A DNA stretch of 64,000 nucleotides from an uncultured bacterium (GTDB taxonomy: Bacteria > Muiribacteriota > UBA6191), in assembly GCA_964503595.1 (NCBI GenBank), contig CAZDAM010000002.1:9335-73334 (forward strand). Direction: 5' to 3'. The notes beneath the pieces were generated by a model, which was not told the DNA's origin, made no database searches, and saw only the letters and a list, made by a program, of their open reading frames with translations. Positions 1 through 16,690 of the stretch are shown here, in pieces (within the stretch, counting starts at the first letter, position 1; every line of letters begins with the position of its first letter). The position numbers were made by a program, and so were the translations under genes.

Positions 1-62
1 TCGTTTCCCTTTTGATGCGGGTATCATGATCGCGAATCGGTACCTGACACGGTGGTTCCTTA

Positions 63-974
63 GTGATGATGAAAACTGTTTTGAAGTGGCTGGCATTTGT
101 TGTCCTGGGCGCACTGATTTTGTGGCTCTTGGGACAAAAAGCCCTCGCCACAGAAGAGGCCTACATGCGTCAGGTTGTCCTGAAAAGCAGCCAGGATGTA
201 GCCTTTCTGACCGCCCGTCACGCTGTGGACACCCTCAAGCAGACGGAAAGCCAGATTGCCGGTCTTGCGCGGGCCCTGATCCGTGAAAACCCTTCCGCAG
301 ACCGTATTCACGAACTCCTGAGAATTCATTTCGGCGCCCACCCCTGTGTTGTTGGTGTCCGCTTCTTCCCCAATACAACAAACCCTGCCGAAATCGCCTT
401 CAGAAATGCCGCCTCCGGTTTTGGCACCGATCTTCTTCTCCCCAGAAAAAGCCCGGAAAACATCCAGTCCCTGCTGGCCCATCCGTCTCCACCAGCAACA
501 ACCCAGAACATCAAGAATGAATCCTTTGCCTACCTGATGCTTCCGGTGAAAGAGCTCAGGGAGAATCTCTATCTGGGAATGATCGAAGCTCAGGTTTCCA
601 TGAGCCGGCTCTTCAGCCCGGCCCAGGAACTTGCTTCAAGACGGGATGGAGAGCTTCTGCTTTTAGATGGCCAGGGAACCATCATTCTTCCCAAGGATCA
701 GGGTTTCAGCTTTGAAGAAGACGAGCTTAAAACCATTCGGGATGAGCGCTATGGAGGCTTTATCCGCAAAGGAGCTGCTCAGGGTGAAATGGTCTCCTTC
801 TGTACTCTGAATCTTCTGGGCACCGGTCCCCTTCCAGATATGGCTGTCCTAAGCCTGGGAGATCCGGAAATCGTCAAGAAATTCGTCGAGCGCATGCGTC
901 TGAATCTGGGCATTCTGATGAGCTTCGGCCTGCTTTTAGTCATGTATCTGGGAAGACTGGTTTTCTTTCGGTGA
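63..974 (+). CDS. Membrane-anchored protein with N- and C-terminal TM helices and a ~250-aa periplasmic sensor-like domain (Cache-like); no output domain
   Basis: 303-aa ORF; N-terminal hydrophobic segment LKWLAFVVLGALILWLL and C-terminal hydrophobic segment ILMSFGLLLVMYLGRLVFF; stop overlaps the GTG start of the next ORF (GTGA). Confidence 0.45.
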   Translation: MMMKTVLKWLAFVVLGALILWLLGQKALATEEAYMRQVVLKSSQDVAFLTARHAVDTLKQTESQIAGLARALIRENPSADRIHELLRIHFGAHPCVVGVRFFPNTTNPAEIAFRNAASGFGTDLLLPRKSPENIQSLLAHPSPPATTQNIKNESFAYLMLPVKELRENLYLGMIEAQVSMSRLFSPAQELASRRDGELLLLDGQGTIILPKDQGFSFEEDELKTIRDERYGGFIRKGAAQGEMVSFCTLNLLGTGPLPDMAVLSLGDPEIVKKFVERMRLNLGILMSFGLLLVMYLGRLVFFR

Positions 975-2677
975 GCCTGAATCTTCATCTCAAACTTCTT
1001 TACCCTCTGCTCCTGACTTTATTTACGGCTGGTTATTTCGCCGGACATCGCTTTGATCTGAATCCTCTAAGCCCGGGCAATTACCAGAACTGTGAGCTGG
1101 TGCAGAAGAAAGGACAGATTTATCTCAGCGCCCAGAAAGGGAGAATCTGTTTTTTTGACTGGAAACTCTACTACCCATCTCAGGACATCCCTAAGCAGGT
1201 AGATCTCAAAATCAGTGGCCAGGGTTCCCTTAAAATTCAGACCCGTCATGAATCCCACCTGATTCCTCTTCCTGCCGTTCTTAAACTGACCAATACCAAA
1301 AACCCCCTGACTCTCAAGTTTGAGATTCCGGACTCCACCTATCTTGAGGCTTTTCAGGAATCCCCCCACTCCCTGCCCTTTGAGAAAGTCCAGGGCCAGT
1401 TTCTGCCCCGCGAATGGAACCCCAAGACCCAGACTCTTTCCTCATCAGCCGTGATCGGGGTCAATCTGGAAGCGGAGTACCTGTTGAACGATCTGAAAGA
1501 AGAGGATTGGCGCCAGCTGTTTGACCAGATCAAAAAAGACGGCTTTCACTCCGTTCGCCTGCACAAGTTTTTCCGGGTTTTTCTAAAAAATCCAGACTCC
1601 CTCCGTCCCAAGCTTCAGGGAATCCTTAAGGAAATCTCCCACTTCGGGCTCAGCCTTTACATGGATGGAATCAGCTTCCCTGAAACCCCAAATCAAGCCC
1701 TTGGATGGGTCTGGGAAATCTTCCTTCAGGAAGACCTCAAGGCCCGACTCTGGGACTGGCTTCACTTCTTGAGTGAACTGAAGCTGGGAGATCCACCATT
1801 CTTCACTTCCAGAAACCTCAAATGGTTTGGAGTTCTGAATGAAAACAGTCTGTTTGCTCCAGCCCCAAGTACAAATGCAAATCTTGAATTCTTAAGACTC
1901 TGGCTCAAACGCCGCGAGGAAAAAAGTGCGGTTTTATCCTTAAGCGGTTTCAAAGCCCAGCTCATGCTCGAATTTGGCCTTGAAGCCTATTCCCACCTCA
2001 AGGCATATGGCTATGAAGAACGGGTTTTTCTGAACAACAGCATGCTTGGCGGGGAAGATGCCCAGGTCTCCCGTTTCTTATCCTATGGAGAAACTGACCG
2101 CCATTTTTATCTGGATTATCCCGCCTTTCATTCCGGCTTCAAGCGCATCAGGAATCTCAATCCGGTTGAACGCTACCAGATCCTCAAGTCCCTGTTTCTT
2201 TCCATGGGCTCCAGCAAGGGAATCTGGCTTTCCGAGGTCAACCTGCCCTGGCCCAATCAATACCAGCACCAGCTTCTGCCCCTGCTTTTGGCCCTTCATC
2301 AGACAACTCCCATCAAAGGACTCTGGTTTTATGACTACCGCTTAAGAAGCAGGGATTTCCACAAAGGTGGAATCTTCGGAGTCCAGAGATTTTCTTCCAT
2401 CATTAACCCTCTGCCACTCTTTTCAGAACTCCTGAACCAGGGCATGTCCATCAAGGAGCATGAAGGATATATTAAGCTTGAATCCCCCAATGCCCGTGTC
2501 CTCTTCGGAATGACCCCAAAAGCCAGAAAGCTCGGTCTTCTTTCCATCACAGAATGGCATACAAGAAATCAGTCCCTGTGCTTCAGTTTTGAGAAAGCCC
2601 AGGGTGACAGGTTTGATGTTCAGGGAAATCTACAGTTTCATTCAGGAAAGACCCCTGTTCACATTCCGTGTGACTGA
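971..2677 (+). CDS. Hypothetical 568-aa protein (possible TIM-barrel glycosyl-hydrolase-like fold); GTG start
   Basis: Long uninterrupted ORF translationally coupled to the upstream ORF; N-terminal hydrophobic segment; no confident family assignment from sequence alone. Confidence 0.45.
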   Translation: MSLNLHLKLLYPLLLTLFTAGYFAGHRFDLNPLSPGNYQNCELVQKKGQIYLSAQKGRICFFDWKLYYPSQDIPKQVDLKISGQGSLKIQTRHESHLIPLPAVLKLTNTKNPLTLKFEIPDSTYLEAFQESPHSLPFEKVQGQFLPREWNPKTQTLSSSAVIGVNLEAEYLLNDLKEEDWRQLFDQIKKDGFHSVRLHKFFRVFLKNPDSLRPKLQGILKEISHFGLSLYMDGISFPETPNQALGWVWEIFLQEDLKARLWDWLHFLSELKLGDPPFFTSRNLKWFGVLNENSLFAPAPSTNANLEFLRLWLKRREEKSAVLSLSGFKAQLMLEFGLEAYSHLKAYGYEERVFLNNSMLGGEDAQVSRFLSYGETDRHFYLDYPAFHSGFKRIRNLNPVERYQILKSLFLSMGSSKGIWLSEVNLPWPNQYQHQLLPLLLALHQTTPIKGLWFYDYRLRSRDFHKGGIFGVQRFSSIINPLPLFSELLNQGMSIKEHEGYIKLESPNARVLFGMTPKARKLGLLSITEWHTRNQSLCFSFEKAQGDRFDVQGNLQFHSGKTPVHIPCD

Positions 2678-2730
2678 TTCACCATCCTTGACTTCATCTT
2701 CCGAGTGGATCTATTCTGCGCCGCCTGATA

Positions 2731-3732
2731 TTGAAAACCATTTTCAAAATGTGCGCAGAAGTATTATTTCCAAATCTAGAAAAAGCCGATCGTCGCCTCC
2801 TGGAGCAGTTCATGGAACTCCTCACTCAAAGCGGCCACTCTCTGACTGAAACCCAGCTCACCATTGCCAAATCTCTTTTGAGACTGAAGCACCATACCGA
2901 GATTGCTCTGGCCCTTCAGGCAGTTGAGCAGAATACCCAGGCATCTCAGCAGGAAGTCGAAACCGTTCTTAAGATTCTGAAGGAATACGGAATTCTGGAA
3001 GTCAAATCTGTCGAAGGCCGCCAGACGATTGAACACAACCATCCGGATCGCAGACATTTTCATATGGTCTGCCTGAAAACCGGGCAGATCGAAGAATTCA
3101 CCTCAGAAATTCTGGAAGAAGTCCTGCATGAAACTGGTGCCCGCCACGGGTTTGTTCCGGTTTTCTCGGATATCGTCCTCTACGGGATCAAGGATGAAAT
3201 CATCCAGTCCGGACAAACCGGCTTCTCCCTGGTTCAGGCTGTCCAGAATCAGGGAGTTCAGATTCTGAGTTTTCCTGATGATGAACCTGAATTTCTTGAA
3301 AACGCAGCTAAAATCGGCCTTCAGGCCGGCTCTCATCTGGAAGTTCTGCATCAGGTGGAATCCACGGGAGAAATCCTTTGCCGCTTTCAGACTCACCGAC
3401 TGGTGATTCCGAAAAAAAAGGCCGAAAAAATCCTGATTCGGGCATTGAATGCCGAAGAAACCCGAACCCTTCGAACCTCTTTGAAGGAAGTGGAAAAAGT
3501 CTGGCCCAGCCTTGAAGATCTGAAAAACGGAGAAGAGGCCCGCATTGTCAGAATCCGTCCAGGCTCCCCCATTCAACGACGCCTGATGGAAATGGGGTTT
3601 GTTGCTGGAGCCAGCATCAAACGCTTAAGAATCGCTCCTTTGGGAGATCCGATTGAATTCAGCCTCAGGGGAGCTCATGTCAGCCTCAGACGAGTTGAAG
3701 CCCGCGATGTATTTGTGGAGCGCCAAGCATGA
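2731..3732 (+). CDS. feoA: FeoA-domain protein with ~250-aa N-terminal extension
   Basis: C-terminal ~75 aa (ARIVRIRPGSPIQRRLMEMGFVAGASIKRLRIAPLGDPIEFSLRGAHVSLRRVEARDVFV) match the FeoA SH3-like domain; stop overlaps feoB start (ATGA). Confidence 0.7.
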   Translation: MKTIFKMCAEVLFPNLEKADRRLLEQFMELLTQSGHSLTETQLTIAKSLLRLKHHTEIALALQAVEQNTQASQQEVETVLKILKEYGILEVKSVEGRQTIEHNHPDRRHFHMVCLKTGQIEEFTSEILEEVLHETGARHGFVPVFSDIVLYGIKDEIIQSGQTGFSLVQAVQNQGVQILSFPDDEPEFLENAAKIGLQAGSHLEVLHQVESTGEILCRFQTHRLVIPKKKAEKILIRALNAEETRTLRTSLKEVEKVWPSLEDLKNGEEARIVRIRPGSPIQRRLMEMGFVAGASIKRLRIAPLGDPIEFSLRGAHVSLRRVEARDVFVERQA

Positions 3733-6125: not shown

Positions 6126-6303
6126 TACAGCGTGAGCTTCCCGCACAGGTTTCACAGCCTGGGACTGTTCTGGTTCTTCGATCCGCCCTGTGACAGATAG
6201 AGCAGACTTTTCAGCTCGGCTTGTGACGGACGGAGGCAGAGAGCCCATGGGCTCTGCAATTATGTCTACTACACTTCCAAAGCACTGGATTGAAGTTACA
6301 CAA

Positions 6304-6332
6304 TTTGCGGAAGTTGCGGAATTTGTGCACAA
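6304..6332 (+). promoter_or_regulatory. Putative phd/doc operator: direct repeat TTGCGGAAG/TTGCGGAAT followed by perfect palindrome TTGTGCACAA, 20-30 bp upstream of phd; GGAG RBS at 6342-6345
   Basis: Direct reading of sequence; Phd/YefM antitoxins typically autoregulate through palindromic operators. Confidence 0.3.
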
Positions 6333-6353
6333 TAGATGGACAGGAGATGAACT

Positions 6354-6608
6354 ATGGCTATTGTCAGCGCATCCGAATTTCAGAAGAACTTTGGGCATTT
6401 TAAGGAATTGGCTCAGAGAGAACCCATTTGCATCACCAGCAATGGCCGGGAAAGTGTCGTACTGCTTTCAGCTGCTGAATACAAGGAATTTCAGGAATAT
6501 ATGAAATCCCGTTATGCCTATAATGGTAACGTCAACGATGCCTTCAAGTCCGATGTCGATGCGTTCATGAACACGCATGGCGAAGTACTTGACGAGCTCG
6601 CTAAATGA
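6354..6608 (+). CDS. phd: Phd/YefM-family antitoxin
   Basis: 84 aa; N-terminus MAIVSASEFQKNFGHFKELA...EPICITSNGRESVVLLSAAEYKEF typical of Phd/YefM; 4-bp overlap (ATGA) with the downstream Doc toxin. Confidence 0.8.
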   Translation: MAIVSASEFQKNFGHFKELAQREPICITSNGRESVVLLSAAEYKEFQEYMKSRYAYNGNVNDAFKSDVDAFMNTHGEVLDELAK

Positions 6609-7003
6609 CCTCAGCTCCCGAACCTAAGTGGATTAGCAAAGCCCAGACGCTCTATATTCATGAGCAGTCGATTGCACGGCATGGCGGCCGCTTAGGGACA
6701 CGCAATGAAGGGCTGCTTGAATCGGCTCTCGCCCGCGCCGAGAACTTCCATGCCTATGGGGAAACCGGTCTTTGCAAATTGGCAGCGGTTTATGCCGTGG
6801 GCATCGCCCGCAATCATACGTTCATTGATGGCAACAAGCGCACCGCCTATGCGGTGGCAGGTCTATTCTTGTATCTGAATGGGCTGTTGCTGACAATTCC
6901 AGAAGTGGCGGCACAAATCAAATTGTTTGAAGATGTCGCTTCCGGGAAAGTTCCGGCGGAAGAACTGTCGGAGTTCTACCGCAAGAACACCACACCGAGA
7001 TAG
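6605..7003 (+). CDS. doc: Doc (death-on-curing) Fic-fold toxin
   Basis: 132 aa; HTFIDGNKRTA matches the Fic/Doc motif HxFx(D/N)GNKR. Confidence 0.85.
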   Translation: MTSAPEPKWISKAQTLYIHEQSIARHGGRLGTRNEGLLESALARAENFHAYGETGLCKLAAVYAVGIARNHTFIDGNKRTAYAVAGLFLYLNGLLLTIPEVAAQIKLFEDVASGKVPAEELSEFYRKNTTPR

Positions 7004-7053
7004 CGGGAGCCCTAAAAAAAACGGGATTGATTCTGTAAAAGAAGAGATGAAGT

Positions 7054-9300
7054 TCACTCAACCTGTGAAGCGACCATACCATCCGGCAGAACCTTGAGGT
7101 GACAGACCACACCGTTCTCAGTTGGACTGACAAGCTTCTTTACCTGAAGCTTCTGTCCCTGAGGAACTTCAGCAAGCAGGTGAACCTGGGCCTCACCATC
7201 GGTATTCGTGCGCAGACGATGACGTTTGGGATCACGGCTCATTCCTTCCAGAATCCTTACTCCCCAGGGAACCTCGGAAAGATCCAGTTCAAACTGGACC
7301 AGAGTGTCGGAATACGGCACCCGATCCTGGTCAAGAAGGGTCAGGGTAATCGGAATCAGGGATTTATCATCCTGCAGACGATGGGCCACAAGCTCTGGAT
7401 AAGCCAGACCTCCCTGCACTCCCGCAACATAGTTCTCAAACTGCCCGGCCGGATGCATCAGTAACGGCATACCGGTTTCCCGTGGTCCGGAAGGCCGACT
7501 TTTGGGCTCAACCGGGCCGGGATATTCGCCCATATACTCAATCACCATTTCCTGGTGTTCCTGAAAATCTCTGGGCTGAAACGGAAACTGCACGGCCTCT
7601 TTGGTGACATGCACAGCGTGCATGGTTTCTCCATCTATTCCGGCATTCAGCTCTTCATGCTTACGGGGAACCGCGAGGCGACCCAGAAACTCTTTGGAAG
7701 AAACCGATTCCACAACGGGAGTTTTCTGGGTTTGATCCGGAACCCTGGAAGCTTTCAGCACAACTCCGGATTTCACGGGTTCGAGGGATTTCAGAAAGCC
7801 TTCAAATTCCTGCTTAGTCGGTTTATGGGTATCCAGGCGAATATCATTCAGCCATTTATTCATCCCAAGAATCGGTTTCAAGGCCCCTTTGGGCTCCATC
7901 ACGACCCGTTTCTTCTCCCGCGCTCTCTCCTGGTCATCGATCTGGGTCATAAGATGGGCAACGGTCTGGCGGGATTGAGCCGGATTCGGTTCATCCACCT
8001 TGGGATGCTGACGGATCGCCTGGACGTTTTCCACGTCCTTTTCACTCAGATCTTCCACATTCTGCAAAAACCTGCGGAAATCCTGATTCAAACGATCCTC
8101 ATCCCAGTCAGTTTCTCCATCCATTCCGGCATTCAGCTCTTCATGCTTGTGGGGAACCGCGAGGCGAACCAGAAACTCTTCGGAGGAAACCGATTCCACC
8201 ACGGGAGTTTTCAGGGTGCGGGCCGGAACCCTGGAAGCCTTCAGCACAATTTCGGATTTTATGGGTTCAAGCGATTTCAAAAAGCCTTCAAATTCCTGCT
8301 TAGCCGGTTTGTGGGCATCCAGGCGAATGTCATTCAGCCATTTGTTCATCCCAAAAATCGGTTTCAAAGCCCCTTTGGACTCCATCACAACCCGTGTCTT
8401 CTCCCGCACTCTCTCCTGATCATCGATCTGGGTCATAAGGTGGGCAAAAGTCTGGCGGGATTGAGCCAGATTCGGTTCATCCACCTTGGGATGCTGGCTG
8501 ATCACCCGGACGTTTTCCATGGCCTTTTCATTCAGACCCTCCACATTCTGCAAAAACCTTCGGAAATTCTGATCCGAACGATCCTCATTCCAGTCAAAGG
8601 TCGGATCCTTGGCCTGGGCTTTCACCAGCTGCTGGTGAAACTCATCCAGACTCTGACGTCCCAGAGTCGGAATCGTCTGGATTTCCGGCTTGTCCGTAGA
8701 TTTCAGGCTGGCATCCAGACTCTGCATAAAACCGGTGAACTGACCATCTTCACGAAGGGCGGCATCCCGAAGACCCAGAAGGTGTCCCCCCCGATCGATT
8801 GCCTGGGCAAGACTCTTCTGATCCTCTTCCAGGCGATAACGGGGATCTCCCGGATTGATGAATGTTGAAAAATGGGGCATGGCCCCCTCGCCCTCCATCG
8901 TCTCCAGAACCTGGGGAAGATGAATTTCCTTCACCAGAGAGGCATTCTGCTCCATGACCTTCAATCGATCATCAAGGGCAATCATGAATTCCTTGAGCTG
9001 GGGAACTTTGATGAAAGTCAGACGCAAACGCCTTAAATCCTGAAGACGGCTCTCCATGTCATCCAGACGAACCTTGAGTCTTTCCTTGACCCTGGCCTTG
9101 CGCATGGCCGTGGAAGAGGCATTCAGGACCTGATCCATTTCAAGGACTTCGGTATGAAGGCCCTCGACAATGCCTGTCATCTGGTTCAGAGTCGCCTTGA
9201 TCCGGTCATTTTCCTCAGGCGTGAAGACAGCCTTAGTCCATCCGAAAGACGAAAGTCCCCAGAAAATTCCAAAGCAAAGCAGCCGTTTGATCTGTTTCAT
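7054..9300 (-). CDS. Secreted 748-aa protein of unknown function with internal 162-aa tandem duplication
   Basis: Signal peptide MKQIKRLLCFGIFWGLSSFGWTKA; two consecutive ~162-aa repeats (NEDRSDQNFRRFLQNVEGL...AGMDGET and DEDRLNQDFRRFLQNVEDL...AGIDGET) at ~90% identity. Confidence 0.7.
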   Translation of the reverse strand: MKQIKRLLCFGIFWGLSSFGWTKAVFTPEENDRIKATLNQMTGIVEGLHTEVLEMDQVLNASSTAMRKARVKERLKVRLDDMESRLQDLRRLRLTFIKVPQLKEFMIALDDRLKVMEQNASLVKEIHLPQVLETMEGEGAMPHFSTFINPGDPRYRLEEDQKSLAQAIDRGGHLLGLRDAALREDGQFTGFMQSLDASLKSTDKPEIQTIPTLGRQSLDEFHQQLVKAQAKDPTFDWNEDRSDQNFRRFLQNVEGLNEKAMENVRVISQHPKVDEPNLAQSRQTFAHLMTQIDDQERVREKTRVVMESKGALKPIFGMNKWLNDIRLDAHKPAKQEFEGFLKSLEPIKSEIVLKASRVPARTLKTPVVESVSSEEFLVRLAVPHKHEELNAGMDGETDWDEDRLNQDFRRFLQNVEDLSEKDVENVQAIRQHPKVDEPNPAQSRQTVAHLMTQIDDQERAREKKRVVMEPKGALKPILGMNKWLNDIRLDTHKPTKQEFEGFLKSLEPVKSGVVLKASRVPDQTQKTPVVESVSSKEFLGRLAVPRKHEELNAGIDGETMHAVHVTKEAVQFPFQPRDFQEHQEMVIEYMGEYPGPVEPKSRPSGPRETGMPLLMHPAGQFENYVAGVQGGLAYPELVAHRLQDDKSLIPITLTLLDQDRVPYSDTLVQFELDLSEVPWGVRILEGMSRDPKRHRLRTNTDGEAQVHLLAEVPQGQKLQVKKLVSPTENGVVCHLKVLPDGMVASQVE
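7620..8595. repeat. Intragenic tandem direct repeat, 2 copies x 486 bp (~90% identical)
   Basis: The 7626-7634 region recurs at 8112-8120; the opposite-strand shadow ORF (7555..8868) shows the same duplication in its translation. Confidence 0.85.
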
Positions 9301-9336
9301 CCTGATTCGTTATCGTATGCTCCGCCTCTCCAATTT

Positions 9337-10635
9337 ATGACAATCACAGATATGAGCCTTTCTTCCCTTGATTCTCTGGCCTTAAAAAAGCTTCGCTCCG
9401 AAAAATCCTTCTATGAATCCGAGACCATGAAGGCCCTGGCCGGAATCAGTCCTGTTTTTCAGAATCTGCCGCCCCATATCCTGATCGGAGGAACCAATGG
9501 TAAAGGCAGCACCACCGCTCTGATGGAAGGAATTCTGATGGCATCCGGCCATCGGGTGGCCACTTTCATTACACCCCATCTTCTGCACCCAAGAGAAAGG
9601 ATCCGGATCCAGGGAGAAGATCTACCTTTCGGAATCTTTCATGAAGCTCTCAGGGATATGCAGGAGTCTGTCCCCAGACTGCTTCAGAAAGGCTTTAGAA
9701 GCCCGAGTTTCTTTGAAGGAATGCTTTACACACTAATCTGGGCAGCCCGCCATTTTGAATGCACGGCCATGGTTATTGAAGCAGGACTTGGAGGGCGAAG
9801 AGACGCAACAGCCTGTCTCTCACCCCAGGCAACCCTGATCACAAACATCAGCCTGGATCATGCTCATATTCTGGGAGAGACCCATGAGGCGATTGCCCAG
9901 GAAAAAGGGACCCTCTATACGATTGCCCAAAAAAAGTTCTATGGCGGAAAGGAAGATCCCAAAAACCTGTTTTCCGAAATCTCCGGCATTCAGATTCTGT
10001 CTGACTCCATTCCGATCACAATCGTTTCACAAGGGCTTGAGGGGCAGAGCGGACAGTTTGACTGGAATGGTCAGTCTCACCGGTTTCGTTGCCCGCTTCT
10101 TGGCTCATTTCAAAGAGAAAACCTTCAAAATGCCATTGCTCTTGCCTTTGAGATCAGAGAAAAATTTGGCATCACACCTCAAAGCGTGGTGCAGGGGATC
10201 CGCCAAATCCGCCATCCCTTCAGAATGGAGCTCTTAAGCAAAACTCCTCCTCTTCTCATCGACGGAGCCCATAATGCAGATGGCCTCAAGAAGCTTCTGG
10301 ACTCCATGAATGAGCTGCTCCCAAACCAAAAACCAGTCCTCTTCATGGGCCTAAAGAGAACAAAAAGCAATCAAAATCTTAGCTTTTTGTCCCATGGGTG
10401 GGACATTGAGGGAGTCTGTCTAAAAGGTGACAGCTTTTTGAGCCCCGCAGGACTGAAGAAACAGATTCCTCTGAGAAGAGTGCACTGCAGTCTGAAAAGC
10501 ACGCTGGAAGCCATGCACGAAACCCTCAAAATCAGGCCTGTTGTTCTTTGCGGGTCTCTTTATCTGGTTGCCCGCTTCACACGATTCTGGAAAAGAAAAA
10601 ACTCTGGCAACAAAAAAATACAGAAAAAAACATAA
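9337..10635 (+). CDS. folC: Folylpolyglutamate synthase / dihydrofolate synthase (Mur-ligase family)
   Basis: ILIGGTNGKGSTTA P-loop; Mur-ligase middle and C-terminal regions; start placed at ATG 9337 (MTITDMSL), after the convergent gene ends at 9300. The listed ORF start 9154 overlaps that gene. Confidence 0.8.
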   Translation: MTITDMSLSSLDSLALKKLRSEKSFYESETMKALAGISPVFQNLPPHILIGGTNGKGSTTALMEGILMASGHRVATFITPHLLHPRERIRIQGEDLPFGIFHEALRDMQESVPRLLQKGFRSPSFFEGMLYTLIWAARHFECTAMVIEAGLGGRRDATACLSPQATLITNISLDHAHILGETHEAIAQEKGTLYTIAQKKFYGGKEDPKNLFSEISGIQILSDSIPITIVSQGLEGQSGQFDWNGQSHRFRCPLLGSFQRENLQNAIALAFEIREKFGITPQSVVQGIRQIRHPFRMELLSKTPPLLIDGAHNADGLKKLLDSMNELLPNQKPVLFMGLKRTKSNQNLSFLSHGWDIEGVCLKGDSFLSPAGLKKQIPLRRVHCSLKSTLEAMHETLKIRPVVLCGSLYLVARFTRFWKRKNSGNKKIQKKT

Positions 10636-10660
10636 AGAATTTGAAGCAATGTACCGATAC
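10633..10660 (+). promoter_or_regulatory. Sigma-28 (FliA)-type promoter candidate upstream of fliD: TAAA-N16-CCGATAC
   Basis: TAAAgaatttgaagcaatgtaCCGATAC resembles consensus TAAA-N15-GCCGATAA; lies ~35 bp upstream of the fliD start. Confidence 0.4.
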
Positions 10661-10692
10661 CGTAAGATAGGCGAAATTGTCCACTCTGGGAG

Positions 10693-12975
10693 TTGGCTAT
10701 GGCAAACGATCTGGCATTATCCACTGGTCTTGTGTCCGGTATTGACTCTGGAGCGCTGGTTGAAGCTCTGACCATCCGGCAGCGGGAAACCATCAAGATT
10801 CAGGAAAGAAAACAGCATGAGCTGACTATTTCCAAGGAAGAATACCAAAGCATTCACTCGGCCCTGTCTTCACTCGAAGAAGCCGCTGTCAATGTATCTT
10901 TTGAATCCACCTTCTCCCGCAAAACCGCAAAAGTCGGCGATGAGGATCTTTTAGGGGCCACTGCCAACACTTCTGCTGAGGCTGCCAATTATCAGCTCAG
11001 TATCAGCCAGCTCGCGACCAGGCACCGGGTTGCCTCGGACATTCAATCCAGCATGACCTCCCCCCTTCTTTCTGAAGACGCTACCATCCAGCTCAACGGA
11101 GTCAGCCTCACGGTTTCTGCCGGGGCTAATCTGAATGATCTGAAAACCGGGATCAATAGCCTCAGAAGCCAGACGGGAGTTTCTGCCGAAATCATTGACA
11201 AACGTCTGATCCTGTCAAGCGTGGATACCGGTACAGAGAACTCCATGGAGATTATGGATGCTGATGGAGAGTTGCTTCAGAGCATCGGAATCCTGAATGA
11301 CCCCAGCAGCTCCGGTTTTGGAGAAGCCAATGCCAAAGGCCAGGCCCTCAGGTCCGTTACCATTGATGACTGGCGTTTTGCTCCCGGAACCTTCAATATC
11401 AACGGAGCCGAATTCACACTTGGAGGCGGAGAGACTTTCAATGATCTGGCCGATATGATCAACAATTCCGGCGTTGAAGGACTGACAGCAGAAGGAGTCG
11501 GAACCAGAATCCTTATTTACAGTGACGGACAGCCTCTTAACCTGCAGGATGTTGAAGGGAATACCACCCGAATCCTTCAGGATGTGCATTATGAGGAATC
11601 CGATTCTCTTGGCGCACTCAACCTGAATGGAAAATCCCTGTTCATAAATGGCCAGCAAATTGATTTCACTACCGAAACAACAGCCGAAGAAGTCATGGAC
11701 CGGATCAATGCCAAAGGCATTTCCGGAGTCAAGGCCACAGTCGCTCCTGACTCCAGCCGTCTGAGGATTTACTCGGAACCCAACATCAACCTCAATATCT
11801 CCGGGACCGCTGCCGCTGATTTTGGTGCCTTCACCTCAAGAATACCTTCCGATCCTTCCTTTCAGTGGGATTATTTCAATGATGTGGATGAAACCATCAA
11901 CATCAACGGGGAAGACGTGGTCATTCCCGCCTACAGCAGCATGACCCAGATCTACAGTGCCATCAATGCAGTTTCCGGTGACTCCGGTGTGACGGCCTCC
12001 ATTGTCGATGGCACCGAATTGAACTTCAATTCCTCCGACACCATTGTCATCGGTGATGTTTCCGGAAGTTTTGCCGAAAGAACAGGTCTTCTTTCCAGTT
12101 CCTTCAAAAATGAGTTAAAAACCCCACAGGATGCTATTTTCACCATCAATGGAGTTCAGGCTACACGCTCCTCCAACATCATCACCGATGTGGTTGAAAA
12201 CCTGACTCTGGAACTCAAATCTACCGGAAGCAGCACCCTGAATATCCAGAACGATTCCGATACTGCTCGTACTGCGATTGAAAACTTCATTGAGCGCTAC
12301 AACGCCGCAATTGAACTGATTGATGAAAAAGTCCGGGCAAAAAAAGACTACAACCTCAAATATCTGGCCGAAGAAGAAAGAGAAAATCTGGATGCCGAAG
12401 CCCTTGCCGAAAAAGAGGACGAACTCAGAAAACAGGTTCTGGCAGGAGACCCCCTGCTTCAGAGAGCCTACAACACTTTGAGGCAGTTCTCTTATATGCG
12501 GGTTGAAGGCCCAGATGGCATTAATTCTCTTTCCAAAATGGGAATCTCCACCGGCGCTATCGGCTCCAATCCAGCTGAAACACGGATCGGAAAACTTCAG
12601 ATTGCAGATGAATCCAAGTTCAAGGCTGCTCTGGAAAACAATCTGGATCAGGTGAAAACCTTCTTTACCCGAACCGATGAAAACAACCCCAAGGGACAGG
12701 GAATTGGCGAACGTCTGAAAGTTGAAATCCGCCGCTTTACATCTTTCAGCGGCCTTTTGACCCAAAAAGCCGGAAGACCCGGCCAGGCTGTTTCAAACAG
12801 TCTGATTGATAAAGAAATTGCGGGTCTTACTCTAGATATCTTGAACAAGAACCGCTCTCTGCTAAAATATCAGGAAAGCTTATTGCTCACATTTCAGAAC
12901 ATGGAGTCTTCCTTGCAGACGTTGCAGAATCAATCCAACGCCATTGCCCAGGCAGGATCCACTGGCGGTTTCTAA
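10693..12975 (+). CDS. fliD: Flagellar filament cap protein FliD (hook-associated protein 2)
   Basis: N-terminus LSTGLVSGIDSGALVEALTIRQRETIKIQERKQ and C-terminal coiled coil LLTFQNMESSLQTLQNQSNAIAQAG are characteristic of FliD; 760 aa. Confidence 0.85.
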   Translation: MAMANDLALSTGLVSGIDSGALVEALTIRQRETIKIQERKQHELTISKEEYQSIHSALSSLEEAAVNVSFESTFSRKTAKVGDEDLLGATANTSAEAANYQLSISQLATRHRVASDIQSSMTSPLLSEDATIQLNGVSLTVSAGANLNDLKTGINSLRSQTGVSAEIIDKRLILSSVDTGTENSMEIMDADGELLQSIGILNDPSSSGFGEANAKGQALRSVTIDDWRFAPGTFNINGAEFTLGGGETFNDLADMINNSGVEGLTAEGVGTRILIYSDGQPLNLQDVEGNTTRILQDVHYEESDSLGALNLNGKSLFINGQQIDFTTETTAEEVMDRINAKGISGVKATVAPDSSRLRIYSEPNINLNISGTAAADFGAFTSRIPSDPSFQWDYFNDVDETININGEDVVIPAYSSMTQIYSAINAVSGDSGVTASIVDGTELNFNSSDTIVIGDVSGSFAERTGLLSSSFKNELKTPQDAIFTINGVQATRSSNIITDVVENLTLELKSTGSSTLNIQNDSDTARTAIENFIERYNAAIELIDEKVRAKKDYNLKYLAEEERENLDAEALAEKEDELRKQVLAGDPLLQRAYNTLRQFSYMRVEGPDGINSLSKMGISTGAIGSNPAETRIGKLQIADESKFKAALENNLDQVKTFFTRTDENNPKGQGIGERLKVEIRRFTSFSGLLTQKAGRPGQAVSNSLIDKEIAGLTLDILNKNRSLLKYQESLLLTFQNMESSLQTLQNQSNAIAQAGSTGGF

Positions 12976-12978
12976 TTC

Positions 12979-13596
12979 ATGCAGATACATCTCAATGGGA
13001 AACAGGTCGAAGTTGAAACTCAGGAACTACAGGGTTTTGGCCAGTTGATTCAAAAAATTGAAAAACAGATTCTGGAGCCAGGCGGCAGTGTCATTACCGC
13101 CCTGCACTTAAATGGTCGTGAACTGGATGCTCAGGGAGAAGCCGATTATTCCACCTTTCCTCTGGATCGGGTAGAATCTCTTGAGATTCGGGCCAGCAAT
13201 AAACAGGAATTGGCTCTACAAGCCCTTGGCGATGCCGTTCACATTCTTCCCGAACTCTCTTCCGTTGTGGATGAATGTCTGAAAAAGTTTGACGAGCTGT
13301 CCGAAAACGCCGGCATGCAGATTTTTGTCACGGTTGCGGATGGCCTCAGCTGGCTTTCCACCGTTTCTCAAGGAGCCGAAGTCATCTTTCATCCGAAGAT
13401 TCAGAATTCCGGCATGGAAAACTCTGCTTTTCTGGTCGCAAGCCGAAAGCTGCAGAATATTGCCCGCGAACTTCTGAATGCCCAGCAGCAGAGCGACTAC
13501 ACCACATTTCGGGATTTGTTGGAATATGAATTAAAACCGACCCTGAATGAAATTGCCGAAGGTATCCCTGAATTTTGCCAAAGCGTTCAGGCCTGA
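12979..13596 (+). CDS. Hypothetical protein in the flagellar locus (205 aa)
   Basis: ORF tightly packed between fliD and the maf-like gene; no recognisable motif. Confidence 0.45.
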   Translation: MQIHLNGKQVEVETQELQGFGQLIQKIEKQILEPGGSVITALHLNGRELDAQGEADYSTFPLDRVESLEIRASNKQELALQALGDAVHILPELSSVVDECLKKFDELSENAGMQIFVTVADGLSWLSTVSQGAEVIFHPKIQNSGMENSAFLVASRKLQNIARELLNAQQQSDYTTFRDLLEYELKPTLNEIAEGIPEFCQSVQA

Positions 13597-13608
13597 TAAT
13601 CTGATTCC

Positions 13609-15528
13609 ATGTCCGATCCCTATCTGTTTCTGAAGGAAGTTGCCCCTCCACTTTACCAGACTCTGGTCTTTCGGGCTGATAAAGAAGAACTTCTGGATGC
13701 GGTTGAAGGCTTTATCAGCAAGGAAGGCAAAACCAATCTGCGCTTTATCCTGGGTGGACGGAATCTTACAGTTCATTCTTCCTACAATCCGGAAAAAGAA
13801 GCCGAAAAAATCCTGAGCCGCTATGAAAACAACCCCCATAAGCTCACTGTTTGTCTGGGGGTCGGAATCGGTTACCACGTCGATGCCTTTCTGAAGGCCT
13901 ACCCGGATCGTCAACTCGTGATCCTGGAGCCAAGCTATAAAACTCTCCGACAGGCCATGAAACTGCGGGACTTCGAAACCTATTTCAGAAACCCCCGAAT
14001 CACCTTTATCATCACCCCGAATCCTGATGAACTCGCTGACTTTCTGGCTTCCCAGTACAACTTCAACCAGCATTCAGGGGTCCAGTTCATCGAGCCTCCG
14101 GTTTATGCCCGCTGGTTCAATGATGTCTTCAATGCCGTCAAAAAAAGGTTTCTGGAGCATCTGGCCAAGTTCACCGCCAATATGGCCACAATCATGGAAG
14201 CGGATGATGATTTCATCATCAACTGCGTGAACAACGTAAAACACCTGGGGAAATTCCCCTGGGCTGCCCAGCTTTTTGGTCGTTTCCCCGGCATTCCCGC
14301 CATCATTATCAGTGCCGGCCCCTCCCTTCACCTTCATCTGGAAAAACTCAGGGAACTCAAAAACAAGGCCTTTCTGATTGCCGTCGATACGGCTTATCCG
14401 ATTCTTTTGAAAAACGGAATCAATCCCCATTTCGTCTGCACAGCCGATCCCAATGATGTCAATTTCATGCATCTCAAGGGTCTTGATGTCAGCAAAACCT
14501 TTCTGGTTGTTGAGCCCATGACCTGGCATGAAACCCTTGATATGGAGGGAGCGCGGGCTTTTATCTGCAACTTCAATGGATATTATTCCTCGTATTTTTC
14601 CAAATTCTCAGCCTTCCCCAAGCCTCTTCTATCCTGGGGTTCGATTGCAACAACCTGCTTTGATCTGGCCCGCCAGATGGACTGTGGCCCAATTATCTTC
14701 GTGGGTCAGGATCTGGCCTATTCCGACATGCTCACCCACTGCCCAGGTTCCCGCTACGATGAACAGTATTACGCCCAGGTCGAAGCCTGCCCGAATCTTG
14801 AGCTTTATACTTCCTATGAAACATTTCACCTGCAAAGAATCCTGGCAAGACCAGTTGTCAGCCACTTGGACATCCATGGCAATCAGGTTTTGACCCAGAA
14901 CAATCTGATTCTCTATGCCCAGTGGCTGGAAGAACAGTTTTCCAAAACCCGACAGCCAGTGATCAATGCCACAGAACGAGGGATCTTGAGGAAAAACTGC
15001 CGTCAGATGAGCTTTGACAAGGTCTGTCGGGATTATCTGACTCAGGACAGGAATCTGAGTGACGCACTGGAAGTCATCTACAATGAGCCCCGTCGCTTTC
15101 TCTTTCCTGAGCTTCTTGCCGATGTCAGCCGGAAAATCGAAAGTCTGGGCAATGCCGAGGCCCTGGCCACATCCCGCAAGGAGGACAGCAAAGCACTGCT
15201 TGATGCCGCAAAAAACAATTCCGAAAAGGAAATGCGGCAGATGTTCAATGAGCTTTCCAAAGGCATCCATTGCGGGATTGAAGACCCCGTTCTTCTGGGA
15301 TGGCTCGAGCACAAAAACCAGAAAGCCGAAGTTTATTTCCAGCGTTCTTTGGGGAAGCTTGTCGGAGCCCGGTTCAGTCAGGATCTGATCGTGAAAATGG
15401 CTGAACTCTACACCGGATACTACGGTTCTCGACTCAAGTCCTTCCAGGAATTGCAGCATTTTCTGAAAATAGCCGCCAAAGGATGTCAGGAGGGTCTGGA
15501 GATCCAGCCCCTTGATGTCTTAGAATAA
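13609..15528 (+). CDS. Motility-accessory-factor (Maf)-like protein with central DUF115/MptE-like domain (putative flagellin glycosylation factor)
   Basis: 639 aa; central region IIISAGPSLHLHLEKL...AFLIAVDTAYPILLKNGINPHFVCTADP matches the DUF115 fold of Campylobacter/Helicobacter Maf proteins; size and position between fliD and fliS fit. Confidence 0.6.
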   Translation: MSDPYLFLKEVAPPLYQTLVFRADKEELLDAVEGFISKEGKTNLRFILGGRNLTVHSSYNPEKEAEKILSRYENNPHKLTVCLGVGIGYHVDAFLKAYPDRQLVILEPSYKTLRQAMKLRDFETYFRNPRITFIITPNPDELADFLASQYNFNQHSGVQFIEPPVYARWFNDVFNAVKKRFLEHLAKFTANMATIMEADDDFIINCVNNVKHLGKFPWAAQLFGRFPGIPAIIISAGPSLHLHLEKLRELKNKAFLIAVDTAYPILLKNGINPHFVCTADPNDVNFMHLKGLDVSKTFLVVEPMTWHETLDMEGARAFICNFNGYYSSYFSKFSAFPKPLLSWGSIATTCFDLARQMDCGPIIFVGQDLAYSDMLTHCPGSRYDEQYYAQVEACPNLELYTSYETFHLQRILARPVVSHLDIHGNQVLTQNNLILYAQWLEEQFSKTRQPVINATERGILRKNCRQMSFDKVCRDYLTQDRNLSDALEVIYNEPRRFLFPELLADVSRKIESLGNAEALATSRKEDSKALLDAAKNNSEKEMRQMFNELSKGIHCGIEDPVLLGWLEHKNQKAEVYFQRSLGKLVGARFSQDLIVKMAELYTGYYGSRLKSFQELQHFLKIAAKGCQEGLEIQPLDVLE

Positions 15529-15549
15529 CAGAGTAGAAGGGAGAAGCCT

Positions 15550-16185
15550 ATGGCTCTTGCGTACCAGAATCAGCAGCTTGGACAATACAAGCGTATGAAG
15601 ATTGAAACGGCCACGCCGGAGATGCTCATTCTCATGCTCTATGACGGGGCTGTGAAGAACATCACTCTGGCCCGTGAAATCATGGGGGATCGATCTAAAA
15701 TCGATCAGTGCAGTAACCATTTTATCAAGGCTCAGAACATCATCACAGAATTGATGGTTTCCCTGAATTTTGAAATCGGGGGCGAAATTGCCCGCAACCT
15801 TTTCAACATCTACGAATTCATCAACTACACCTTGGCCCAGGCCAATATCACCAAATCCGAAGAAAATCTGGATACCGTGATCACCATGCTCAAGGATCTC
15901 AAGGGCACCTGGCAGGAAGTCATCCGTATCAATCGCGAACGCTACCCGGCCGGTCTTCCATCCGCAGAAGAGATTGCCGCCCGCGAGGGTCGTCCCAGCC
16001 CGGATCCTCAAGGTGGAGTCAATCCTCTGGCCCGTACGGAAAATATGGATGTTGCGGCCAGTGAGGCCGAAGAACCGATACCTGCTCCCGAGCCGGAGAA
16101 GTCCGTAACTTCCAGTACCCGACCCCAGCCTGGCCAGCAGAACCGTTTCAAACAGATTTACGGCAAAGTTCTGTCCCGCAAGTAA
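15550..16185 (+). CDS. fliS: Flagellar export chaperone FliS with Pro/Glu-rich C-terminal extension
   Basis: MALAYQNQQLGQYKRMKIETATPEMLILMLYDGAVKNI matches the FliS N-terminus; four-helix-bundle length plus ~70-aa low-complexity tail. Confidence 0.85.
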   Translation: MALAYQNQQLGQYKRMKIETATPEMLILMLYDGAVKNITLAREIMGDRSKIDQCSNHFIKAQNIITELMVSLNFEIGGEIARNLFNIYEFINYTLAQANITKSEENLDTVITMLKDLKGTWQEVIRINRERYPAGLPSAEEIAAREGRPSPDPQGGVNPLARTENMDVAASEAEEPIPAPEPEKSVTSSTRPQPGQQNRFKQIYGKVLSRK

Positions 16186-16189
16186 TTTC

Positions 16190-16690
16190 ATGCCTAAACA
16201 GCCCGCCAACCTCCTCATTGAGGACATGCAGCCCTGGCATGTGGAAGATGTTCTCAAACTTGAGGCCTTAATTCCTCAGCATGGTGATACTTCCCGCATG
16301 CAAAAGCAAAGAGAAGATCTGATCCGCGCCTTCCTGCGCTACCGCGATCTGGGACAGGCAGTTTGCCGGGTTCTGGAAGCCGATGAAGAAAAGGTCATTG
16401 GCTACTATATTCTTCTGACTCATCCCGCGCGGGTGGCCTCCTTCTGGAAAAAATCCCTTCAGGCAAGTCAGGGCATGGCCTATCTGGCCCAGATTGCCAT
16501 GGATGAGGAATTCCAGCAGATGGGTCTTGGGAAAATCCTTCTTAGGAATGCCGAGGAAAGTTCCCGAAACATGGGTTTGAACGAAATGATTCTGGAAGTC
16601 ATGAGTGGCTCTGATGCTCATACCTGGTACCAGCACCATGCCTACGAAGAAATTGGAGCCCAGATCTATCTGAAGAAAGCCCTGGCATGA
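16190..16690 (+). CDS. GNAT-family N-acetyltransferase (PseH-like position in the flagellar locus)
   Basis: 166 aa; motif A-like QIAMDEEFQQMGLGKILLRNAEE; immediately follows fliS. Confidence 0.7.
   Translation: MPKQPANLLIEDMQPWHVEDVLKLEALIPQHGDTSRMQKQREDLIRAFLRYRDLGQAVCRVLEADEEKVIGYYILLTHPARVASFWKKSLQASQGMAYLAQIAMDEEFQQMGLGKILLRNAEESSRNMGLNEMILEVMSGSDAHTWYQHHAYEEIGAQIYLKKALA

What the first reader, a model, noticed from the sequence alone, without database searches (positions are those of the whole stretch)
7054..9300. Secreted 748-aa orphan protein with a recent 486-bp intragenic tandem duplication
Two adjacent 162-aa modules are ~90% identical at protein level; the DNA period of 486 bp is visible directly (7626-7634 recurs at 8112-8120). 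Such young tandem duplications in secreted proteins are hotspots for copy-number variation and antigenic or length variation.

The protein has a signal peptide and no recognisable domain. The gene lies next to a Phd-Doc cassette, in what looks like an accessory patch between feoB and folC.
Basis: seen in the sequence. Interest (0 to 1): 0.55.

Follow-up and report, generated by a model that had tools for sequence, protein, structure and literature searches.

The report
Duplicated module in flagellar-regulon exported protein
The 486-bp in-frame tandem duplication is real but not young, and it sits in an uncharacterised exported protein of a candidate-phylum bacterium that carries a conserved flagellar (sigma-28-type) promoter, so it looks like a lineage-specific motility-apparatus accessory rather than an accessory-island antigen.

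Summary
Observation confirmed. ORF 7054-9300 (-) encodes 748 aa and holds exactly two head-to-tail 486-bp copies (7625-8596) with no indels. The copies differ at 50 of 486 bases (89.7% DNA, 82% protein identity), with dS about 0.2, dN/dS 0.4-0.6 and a longest identical run of 28 nt. It is therefore neither an assembly artefact nor a young, recombination-prone repeat.

The protein is not a strict orphan. A tiny family exists: 18 cluster representatives among 1.84 billion proteins, from UBP17 / 'Cloacimonadota'-labelled MAGs, with no Pfam, PDB or fold match. Family members share a signal peptide, an N-terminal three-helix bundle, an invariant FINPGDPRY motif, a low-confidence helical array of FxxFLxxLE motifs, and a C-terminal beta-sandwich with one invariant Cys. 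The duplication doubles the conserved motif array. The downstream copy is the one drifting. An older duplication of an overlapping module occurred separately in another branch.

The gene is not in an accessory patch. In every related locus with enough flank it lies divergent from fliD-maf-fliS. A sigma-28-type promoter (TAAA-N18-CGATA) ends 7-11 nt before its ATG in 10 of 10 loci. Distant paralogs lie inside secretin-PilB-PilC operons. Only Phd-Doc is accessory, at an inversion junction.

Best reading: an exported, FliA-regulon accessory of the motility apparatus with an extensible linker.

The parts
7054..9300 (-). Gene X: 748-aa exported protein of an uncharacterised, lineage-restricted family
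   Evidence: ORF. There are 6 homologues at 41-53% identity among 5.8e9 proteins and 18 representatives among 1.84e9. No Pfam or NCBIfam family reaches threshold.
9311..9337 (-). Sigma-28 (FliA)-type promoter of X: TAAATTGGAGAGGCGGAGCATACGATA, ending 10 nt before the ATG. A leaderless or near-leaderless mRNA is inferred. The promoter abuts the folC-like start codon at 9337.
   Evidence: A T[AT]A[AG]-N18-CGATA element ends 7-11 nt before the ATG in 10 of 10 loci (alignment A4). It is one of only two TAAA-N17/18-CGATA sites in the 64-kb window on both strands. The consensus is given in PMC2859248.
9229..9300 (-). Sec-type signal peptide (aa 1-24, inferred cleavage after TKA)
   Evidence: n-h-c organisation; the hydropathy maximum is at aa 7-25. 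Homologues have equivalent N-termini ending just before the conserved VFT.EE. No signal-peptide predictor was run.
8920..9219 (-). N-terminal three-helix bundle (aa 28-127)
   Evidence: AF2 helices 28-61, 65-96 and 100-127 with pLDDT 76-90. Foldseek returns only generic three-helix bundles at E>0.2.
8836..8862 (-). Invariant FINPGDPRY motif (aa 147-155); function unknown
   Evidence: F147 to R154 are invariant in all 7 X-subfamily sequences. The motif is absent from the paralogue branch.
8110..8595 (-). Repeat copy 1 (aa 236-397), the conserved module with helices FRRFLQNVE, FAHLMTQID, FEGFLKSLE and EEFLVRL
   Evidence: It aligns with the single module of the homologues and keeps the family-consensus residue at 17 of the 29 sites where the copies differ.
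7624..8109 (-). Repeat copy 2 (aa 398-559), the faster-diverging duplicate
   Evidence: It keeps the consensus at only 6 of 29 differing sites and has lost the invariant E350 (to G), F285 (to V) and R265 (to Q) equivalents.
7378..7623 (-). Variable linker (aa 560-641), unalignable between family members and predicted disordered
   Evidence: Alignment A1; pLDDT 24-34.
7078..7377 (-). C-terminal beta-sandwich domain (aa 642-741), shared with the paralogue branch. Invariant lone Cys733 is encoded at 7102-7104.
   Evidence: Domain-only AF2 model with pLDDT 85.9 and 8 strands. The domain is conserved across both subfamilies. The Cys is invariant in 29 of 29 members. Only weak MG4/Big_1 hints; no significant fold match.
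10633..10659 (+). Sigma-28-type promoter of fliD (TAAAGAATTTGAAGCAATGTACCGATA), an internal positive control for the motif
   Evidence: Related loci have perfect TAAA-N15-GCCGATA upstream of fliD.
10693..16690 (+). Late flagellar operon fliD - DUF8042-like - maf (MptE-like) - fliS - acetyltransferase, divergent from X
   Evidence: Pfam; tblastn to related loci; precomputed Pfam in related loci.
9337..10635 (+). folC-like Mur-ligase gene between X and fliD. It is present only in the closer relatives.
   Evidence: Mur_ligase_M and Mur_ligase_C. Synteny. The start at 9337 is inferred.
6354..7003 (+). Phd-Doc toxin-antitoxin cassette, the only truly accessory DNA here, at the inversion junction
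   Evidence: Pfam; absent from all related loci.
63..2677 (+). Genes Y (303 aa, two hydrophobic ends) and Z (568 aa). Elsewhere they lie directly downstream of X on the same strand; in the window they are inverted away from it together with fur/feoA-feoB (2731-6125).
   Evidence: tblastn finds Y and Z downstream of X in all loci with flank. Gene tables are. feoB follows Z in L005, L007 and L012.

Best explanation
Gene X encodes a Sec-exported, lineage-restricted envelope protein that belongs to the late flagellar (sigma-28/FliA) regulon of a UBP17-like candidate-phylum bacterium.

Its build, from N- to C-terminus:
- a signal peptide;
- a three-helix bundle;
- an invariant FINPGDPRY motif;
- a flexible array of short amphipathic helices carrying the motif F-x-x-F-L-x-x-L-E;
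- a variable disordered linker;
- a C-terminal Ig-like beta-sandwich with one invariant cysteine.

An illegitimate, in-frame tandem duplication copied 162 residues of the helix-motif array. This raised the number of motifs from about 4 to about 6-7 and lengthened the protein from about 586 to 748 aa. The event is moderately old (dS about 0.2). Both copies stay open and under some purifying selection, but the downstream copy is drifting.

I infer that the protein is an accessory or scaffold component of the motility apparatus in the periplasm or at the outer membrane. Its paralogues would play the same role in a secretin-PilB-PilC (type IV pilus / T2SS-like) machine. On this reading the middle region acts as an extensible tether or multivalent binding array whose length changes by module duplication.

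Shown: the duplication, its age and its asymmetry; the family and its architecture; the synteny; the promoter motif.
Inferred: export, FliA dependence, leaderless transcription, and the accessory/tether role.
For: Duplication:
- 486 bp x 2.0 copies, 89.7% identity, no indels, in frame, dN/dS 0.37 (NG86) or 0.57 (YN00), dS 0.17-0.22.
- Asymmetric divergence: 17 sites favour copy 1 and 6 favour copy 2.

Family and architecture:
-.
- AF2 full length and C-terminal domain at pLDDT 85.9.
- The motif occurs 58 times against 1.5 expected in 16 proteins.
- Family lengths range from 516 to 751 aa. An older, separate duplication of an overlapping module is seen in P0006, P0007 and P0009 (local score 84-98 against shuffles of 41-44 +/- 5-9).

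Flagellar link:
- X lies divergent from fliD-DUF8042-maf-fliS in every related locus with upstream flank, while the outer flanks differ.
- The sigma-28-type element, with invariant CGATA and a fixed 18-nt spacing to T[AT]A[AG], ends 7-11 nt before an ATG in 10 of 10 loci.
- In the window the strict motif occurs only upstream of fliD and of X (shuffle mean 0.875).
- The consensus TAAAGTTT-n11-GCCGATAA is quoted in PMC2859248.

Machine association of the family:
- Paralogues P0016, P0027 and P0033 each lie directly after T2SSF in secretin - 242 aa - T2SSE(MshEN) - T2SSF - paralogue - TPR operons.
- Those operons also have a sigma-28-like motif upstream of the secretin gene in 3 of 3 loci.
- X and a paralogue coexist in one MAG (JACFNL01).
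Against: - There is no expression or localisation data, and FliA dependence rests on a motif alone.
- The -35 element is poor (TTGT) in L009 and L002.
- The conserved synteny could be phylogenetic inertia within one small clade.
- No structural or sequence similarity to any known flagellar or pilus component was found.
- The middle region is modelled at low confidence (pLDDT 24-65) from only 7 sequences, so 'flexible tether' is a weak structural statement.
- The F-x-x-F-L motif was defined after looking at these sequences, so its enrichment statistic is partly circular.
- X is also always linked to Y-Z, a membrane protein plus a glycosidase-like protein. That could point to a glycan or matrix function instead.
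Confidence: 0.5

Rival explanations
1. One reading: a young tandem duplication in a secreted or surface protein inside an accessory patch, acting as a hotspot for copy-number, length or antigenic variation.
For: In-frame period of 486 (= 3 x 162) with two adjacent copies. A signal peptide is present. A Phd-Doc cassette lies next door. Family members vary in length from 516 to 751 aa.
Against: The copies differ at 50 of 486 nt and the longest identical run is 28 nt, close to the minimum needed for RecA-mediated recombination (own knowledge of MEPS). dN/dS is below 1. The duplicated part is the conserved core of the family. The gene position is ancestral and syntenic, GC content is flat, and only Phd-Doc is accessory.
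Confidence: 0.1
2. X is a flagellum-co-expressed secreted effector or adhesin, or a matrix protein. It would be analogous to proteins co-expressed with flagella but not part of the machine. It might be exported across the outer membrane by the secretin system, rather than being a structural accessory.
For: Sigma-28-type promoter. Sec signal peptide. A multivalent short-motif array and a terminal Ig-like domain are typical of adhesins. Paralogues are encoded in a T2SS/T4P-like operon that could export them.
Against: The paralogue gene starts 2 nt after the T2SSF stop and overlaps the next gene (L021). That spacing is more typical of stoichiometric machine subunits than of substrates. There is one copy per genome with strong conservation of both terminal domains.
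Confidence: 0.22
3. [not shown]
Confidence: 0.13
4. The duplication is an assembly artefact (a mis-joined or expanded repeat).
For: Metagenome-type assemblies can mis-handle repeats. No second genome of this species was available for comparison.
Against: Artefactual expansions yield identical copies. Here there are 50 differences with a transition bias and a codon-position pattern compatible with evolution under selection. The junctions are sharp and the reading frame is intact.
Confidence: 0.02

Closest known systems
MotX/MotY and FlgT/FlgP-type lineage-specific periplasmic flagellar accessory proteins (Vibrio, Campylobacter)
   Same: Sec-exported and encoded beside flagellar genes. These accessories are clade-restricted additions to the core flagellum. 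That MotX/MotY are sigma-28-dependent late genes is my own knowledge.
   Different: No sequence or fold similarity was detected. X has a long, low-confidence helical-motif array and a different domain order. No experimental link to the flagellum exists.
TsaP / FlgT precedent: related periplasmic accessory domains serving both a type IV pilus secretin and a flagellar ring (own knowledge)
   Same: This family likewise has one branch beside flagellar genes (X) and another inside secretin-PilB-PilC operons.
PilP / GspC-HR type secretin-binding beta-sandwich proteins
   Same: An exported protein with a long disordered region and a C-terminal beta-sandwich, encoded in a secretin/ATPase/platform operon (the paralogue branch).
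   Different: X is 3-4 times larger and has no lipobox. Foldseek against the PDB gave no PilP or GspC hit. Membership is not supported.
Bacterial Ig-like domains (Big_1) / macroglobulin MG domains
   Same: The C-terminal domain is a predicted 8-strand beta-sandwich. There are weak Pfam hints: MG4 in 4 of 16 members and Big_1 in 2 of 16.
   Different: The best E-values are 0.04-0.07, far below gathering thresholds, and there is no significant structural match.
Tandem-repeat surface proteins with copy-number variation (e.g. alpha C/Rib-type repeats of streptococci; own knowledge)
   Same: In-frame tandem repetition of a whole module in an exported protein.
   Different: Those have many near-identical repeats that recombine readily. 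Here there are two copies, 10% diverged and asymmetrically decaying.

Membership tests
Sigma-28 (FliA) late flagellar regulon | Promoter matching TAAA-N15-GCCGATAA at the appropriate distance upstream of the gene | tested here: met
   Window 9337-9311: TAAA-N16-ATACGATAA. The core CGATA and the spacing are invariant in 10 of 10 orthologous loci. The same motif lies upstream of fliD. The consensus is from PMC2859248. The spacing is 1 nt longer than in E. coli, both here and at this lineage's fliD promoters.
Sigma-28 (FliA) late flagellar regulon | FliA-dependent transcription and co-expression with flagellin and fliD | not testable with these tools
   No expression data are available, and no fliA gene was found in the window.
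Sigma-28 (FliA) late flagellar regulon | Conserved linkage to flagellar genes | tested here: met
   X is divergent from fliD-DUF8042-maf-fliS in all related loci with upstream flank.
Contingency / copy-number-variable tandem-repeat surface protein | Near-identical repeat units providing long recombination substrates | tested here: not met
   89.7% identity; the longest identical run is 28 nt.
Contingency / copy-number-variable tandem-repeat surface protein | Different copy numbers among close relatives | not testable with these tools
   No relative closer than 53% identity was found. Across the family the length does vary, by older independent events.
Big_1 / Ig-like (E-set) domain | Pfam model hit above the gathering score | tested here: not met
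   Best E-value 0.071 for Big_1 and 0.044 for MG4 among 16 members; none for the window protein.
Big_1 / Ig-like (E-set) domain | Beta-sandwich fold matching solved Ig-like domains | tested here: inconclusive
   [not shown]
PilP / GspC HR-domain alignment proteins | Sequence or fold similarity of the C-terminal domain to PilP or GspC-HR | tested here: not met
   No such hit in a PDB profile search or in Foldseek against the PDB. Only the operon context of the paralogues is suggestive.
Sec-exported protein | N-terminal n-h-c signal peptide with a small-x-small cleavage site, conserved in homologues | tested here: met
   By inspection and hydropathy only. No dedicated predictor was available.
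Phd-Doc type II toxin-antitoxin (the neighbouring genes, not X) | Adjacent, overlapping PhdYeFM antitoxin and Fic/Doc toxin genes | tested here: met
   Genes 6354-6608 and 6605-7003 overlap by 4 nt, and the Pfam hits are above the cut-offs.

The most novel reading that the evidence does not exclude
The X family is a previously unrecognised structural component shared by two envelope-spanning motility machines of a candidate phylum. One paralogue would serve the flagellum and another a secretin-PilB-PilC pilus-like system, both under sigma-28-type promoters. It would anchor through an invariant C-terminal Ig-like domain and a lone cysteine, and its periplasm-spanning length would be tuned by duplication of a helical FxxFLxxLE module.
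Probability: 0.2. Interest if true: 0.65.

Novelty: new variant of a known kind. Interest (0 to 1): 0.4.

Why it matters
The duplication on its own is ordinary: a two-copy, partly decayed module duplication in a modular exported protein.

The value lies in what it flags. This is an undescribed protein family with no Pfam, PDB or fold relatives. It is confined to UBP17-like lineages, which have been reported as the richest in unknown gene families per genome (PMC10849945). Promoter and synteny evidence tie the family to the flagellar regulon, and its paralogues to a pilus- or secretion-type machine.

If that holds, the family is a candidate new accessory of bacterial motility machines in an uncultured phylum. 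It would also be a natural experiment, with one-module and two-module forms, on how the length of such a component is tolerated. The analysis also shows that the 'accessory patch' is really a conserved locus disturbed by one inversion and a toxin-antitoxin insertion.

Tried and rejected
- Pfam and NCBIfam on X: only sub-threshold noise.
- Foldseek of the full model and of the C-terminal domain against the PDB, and of the domain against BFVD: no hit at E<=0.001. There were only generic three-helix bundles, Fn3-like domains and spurious GFP-barrel matches.
- A second word-indexed protein search with the wider alignment returned the same six proteins.
- A search for close relatives to test copy-number variation found none.
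- I looked for type IV pilus or T2SS genes next to X in the window. There is only a distant HEAT-PilT-like fusion at 50972-53776.
- The generic sigma-70 and terminator scan around X was uninformative.
- blastp self-comparison gave no off-diagonal output, so I replaced it with Smith-Waterman alignment against shuffles.
- No microhomology was seen at the duplication junctions, at most 1 nt.
- The assembly-artefact reading and the idea of an antisense gene (437-aa ORF 7555-8868, a shadow of X) were rejected.
Full report
**1. The observation**

The window holds an ORF at 7054..9300 on the minus strand that encodes 748 aa. Tandem Repeats Finder reports one array at 7625-8596, with period 486, 2.0 copies, 89% matches and no indels. 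The repeat finder gives the same 486-nt spacing.

I counted 436 of 486 identical positions (89.7%). Identity at an offset of 486 falls to background (20-40%) within about 15 nt outside the array, so there are exactly two copies with sharp edges. The binomial P is about 1e-193.

In the protein the copies are aa 236-397 and aa 398-559.

The differences between the copies behave like evolved changes:
- There are 50 mismatches by the count, and tallies 40 transitions and 11 transversions.
- They are spread 14, 15 and 22 over codon positions 1, 2 and 3.
- 17 differing codons are synonymous and 29 are non-synonymous.
- dN/dS is 0.37 (NG86) or 0.57 (YN00), with dS 0.17-0.22.

The longest perfectly identical runs are 28, 26 and 23 nt. 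An assembly artefact would give identical copies, so that reading is rejected. For the same reason the repeat is not 'young' in a population sense, and it is a poor substrate for unequal crossing-over. No microhomology is visible at the junctions.

**2. The protein and its family**

Nothing reaches threshold in Pfam or NCBIfam. A search of 5.8 billion clustered proteins found six homologues at 41-53% identity, 516-751 aa long. An exhaustive profile search of 1.84 billion cluster representatives found 18 proteins in all.

Genome and metagenome scans place the homologues in MAGs labelled UBP17_UBA6191, 'Candidatus Cloacimonadota/Cloacimonetes' or just 'bacterium'. UBP17 has been singled out as the phylum with the most novel gene families per genome (PMC10849945). 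An unannotatable protein is therefore expected in this lineage.

The alignment and the AF2 models give the following architecture:
- a signal-peptide-like N-terminus, conserved in type among homologues;
- a three-helix bundle at aa 28-127 (pLDDT 76-90);
- an invariant FINPGDPRY motif at aa 147-155;
- a region of short helices separated by low-confidence segments, aa about 185-560;
- an unalignable linker, aa 560-641;
- a C-terminal beta-sandwich, aa 642-741, modelled alone with 16 sequences at pLDDT 85.9 and pTM 0.77.

The helices in the middle carry a recurring motif, F-x-x-F-[LFM]-x-x-[LV]-[ED]. It occurs 3-4 times in single-module members and 6 times in the window protein. Across 16 family members it occurs 58 times against 1.5 expected from shuffles. 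The pattern was defined after looking at these sequences, so this statistic is partly circular.

Every member of at least 300 aa (29/29) has one invariant cysteine 7-18 residues from the C-terminus. It is nearly always the only cysteine outside the signal peptide.

No solved or viral predicted structure matches significantly. There are weak Pfam hints to MG4 and Big_1 (E 0.04-0.07). These agree only with a generic Ig-like sandwich.

**3. What the duplication did**

Copy 1 aligns with the single module present in P0001-P0005 and P0008. The duplicated unit is therefore the last 150 or so residues of the conserved N-terminal part, plus about 12 residues of linker. It contains the helices FRRFLQNVE, FAHLMTQID, FEGFLKSLE and EEFLVRL.

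The copies differ at 29 positions. Copy 1 carries the family-consensus residue at 17 of them and copy 2 at 6. Copy 2 has lost the equivalents of the family-invariant E350 (now G), of F285 (now V) and of R265 (now Q). The downstream copy is therefore the one under relaxed constraint, although both remain open reading frame.

Length change in this region recurs in the family. P0006, P0007 and P0009 (690-751 aa) carry a much older second copy of an overlapping module, [DF..FL.E.EP..SE.. ... FLERLR.R]. It is detectable at local scores of 84-98 against 41-44 +/- 5-9 for shuffles. P0004 and P0008 do not carry it.

**4. Genomic context**

Gene tables and tblastn for the related loci show something different. 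In every locus with enough flank, X lies divergent from [(folC-like) - fliD - DUF8042 - maf - fliS - acetyltransferase]. It is followed on the same strand by two conserved unknown genes, Y (about 300 aa) and Z (about 570 aa). In three lineages feoA-feoB come next. The genes beyond this block differ between loci.

The window has the same flagellar operon at 10693-16690. Y (63-974), Z (971-2677), a Fur-FeoA fusion (2731-3732) and feoB (3729-6125) lie on the opposite strand relative to X. The simplest reading is one inversion of the Y-Z-feoAB block. Phd-Doc (6354-7003; Pfam) sits at the X-proximal junction and is absent from all 23 related loci. GC content is uniform across the region. Only the toxin-antitoxin pair is accessory.

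**5. A conserved sigma-28-type promoter**

I aligned the 60-70 nt upstream of X, anchored on the start codon. This shows an element T[AT]A[AG]-N18-CGATA[AT] ending 7-11 nt before an ATG in 10 of 10 loci. CGATA and the spacing are invariant, while the surrounding sequence is otherwise unalignable between distant loci. L009 and L002 have a perfect GCCGATA but a poor -35 element.

The element matches the sigma-28/FliA consensus TAAAGTTT-n11-GCCGATAA (PMC2859248), with one extra spacer nucleotide. The same one-longer spacing is seen at this lineage's fliD promoters.

Across the whole 64-kb window, on both strands, TAAA-N17/18-CGATA occurs only twice. One site is 10633-10659 (+), 33 nt upstream of fliD. 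The other is 9337-9311 (-), 10 nt upstream of X. The shuffle mean is 0.875 sites. Related loci have perfect TAAA-N15-GCCGATA upstream of fliD. No such motif precedes Y.

The short distance to an invariably ATG start suggests a leaderless or nearly leaderless mRNA; this is inference. The promoter abuts the inferred folC-like start codon at 9337. The same analysis shows that the database start of P0005 is mis-called. An ATG 7 nt after the promoter restores an N-terminal extension.

**6. The paralogue branch**

The more distant family members are P0013-P0033, of 660-730 aa. They share the N-terminal helices, the F-x-x-F motifs and the C-terminal domain.

Three of them were looked up, and each lies in the same operon: secretin - 242-aa protein - T2SSE ATPase with an MshEN domain - T2SSF platform protein - paralogue - TPR protein. 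PilT-like ATPases lie nearby. In L021 the paralogue starts 2 nt after the T2SSF stop and overlaps the next gene.

One MAG (JACFNL01) has both an X orthologue (L002) and a paralogue (P0016). A sigma-28-like motif lies 34-83 nt upstream of the secretin start codon in all three loci.

**7. Interpretation**

Shown:
- a real, in-frame, moderately old tandem duplication that is decaying asymmetrically;
- a small family with conserved architecture;
- conserved synteny with late flagellar genes;
- a conserved sigma-28-type promoter motif;
- paralogues embedded in pilus- or secretion-machine operons.

Inferred:
- X is exported by Sec.
- X is expressed with the late flagellar genes.
- X acts in the envelope as an accessory or scaffold of the motility apparatus.
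- Its middle region is an extensible tether or multivalent binding array, and the duplication lengthened it by 162 residues.

I put about 0.5 on this composite reading. The main alternatives are:
- a flagellum-co-expressed secreted adhesin or effector (0.22);
- a role with Y-Z in glycan processing (0.13), since Z carries invariant NENSL and SExNLPWPN motifs reminiscent of clan GH-A hydrolases (my own reading, with no Pfam or PDB support);
- an assembly artefact (0.02).

**8. Comparison with known systems**

Functionally, X most resembles clade-specific, Sec-exported flagellar accessories such as MotX/MotY or FlgT/FlgP. The TsaP/FlgT case is a precedent for related periplasmic parts serving both pili and flagella. 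These comparisons rest on my own knowledge. No homology was detected, so this is 'works like', not membership.

X fails the defining feature of copy-number-variable repeat proteins, which is near-identical units.

**9. Verdict**

The duplication itself is ordinary. The protein family and its regulatory and syntenic ties to motility machines are undescribed and moderately interesting. Overall interest is 0.4.

Noticed in passing
window 63-7003: The block Y (63-974) - Z (971-2677) - fur/feoA (2731-3732) - feoB (3729-6125) is co-directional with X in related loci but inverted in the window. The Phd-Doc cassette (6354-7003), absent from all related loci, sits at the X-proximal junction. The other junction lies beyond the left edge of the window.
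   Followed up: partly
window 971-2677 (Z), and the homologues directly downstream of Y in L002-L016: The 568-aa exported protein Z has no Pfam or PDB hit. Its family has invariant GVNxEA, DGFxxxRxHK, NENSL, SExNLPWPN and WFYDYRL motifs. These resemble the acid/base (NE) and nucleophile (E) strands of clan GH-A TIM-barrel glycosidases. This is my own reading and is untested.
   Followed up: partly
window 2731-3732: One ORF combines a FUR-family domain (aa 35-144) with FeoA domains (two matched stretches; best at aa 260-331), immediately upstream of and overlapping feoB. It is an unusual regulator-FeoA fusion.
   Followed up: no
L021 4550-4575, L022 4496-4521, L023 2527-2553: A sigma-28-like TAAA-N17/18-CGATA motif lies 34-83 nt upstream of the secretin gene that heads the secretin-PilB(MshEN)-PilC-paralogue-TPR operon, in all three loci examined. 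This suggests that the pilus- or secretion-like system is also FliA-type regulated.
   Followed up: partly
window 7102-7104 (Cys733), and all family members: One invariant cysteine sits in the last beta-strand, 7-18 residues from the C-terminus, in 29 of 29 members. It is nearly always the only cysteine of the mature protein. This suggests an intermolecular disulfide or another covalent link.
   Followed up: partly
L014 11878-12027 (-), and equivalent positions in L003, L006, L007, L009, L012: A conserved small antisense ORF beginning MICPVCEKGQMI (zinc-ribbon-like CPxC) lies between X and Y in most related loci. Its presence in the window could not be judged, because the window begins there.
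   Followed up: no
window 9300-9360: The X promoter overlaps the inferred folC-like start (ATG at 9337). The longer listed folC ORF (9154-10635) overlaps the 5' end of X and is probably an over-extension. The two divergent genes are only about 36 nt apart (7 nt in L009).
   Followed up: partly
L012 about 9893 (P0005): The database protein P0005 (543 aa) lacks a signal peptide because its start was called too far downstream. An ATG 7 nt after the conserved promoter restores the N-terminus.
   Followed up: partly
window 50972-53776 and 38261-39970: Two unusual HEAT-repeat fusions: a 934-aa HEAT plus PilT-like T2SSE ATPase, and a 569-aa HEAT plus phosphoribosyltransferase. A separate 334-aa HEAT-repeat protein is encoded at 37091-38095.
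   Followed up: no
window 7555-8868 (+): A 437-aa ORF antisense to X spans the repeat. It is a shadow ORF of the X reading frame and is not supported as a gene.
   Followed up: partly
window 23695-24396, 34025-35044, 39967-41106: gidB (rsmG), fliG and dnaN are present. The cumulative GC skew falls steadily over 1-16000. The window may lie near the replication origin region.
   Followed up: no
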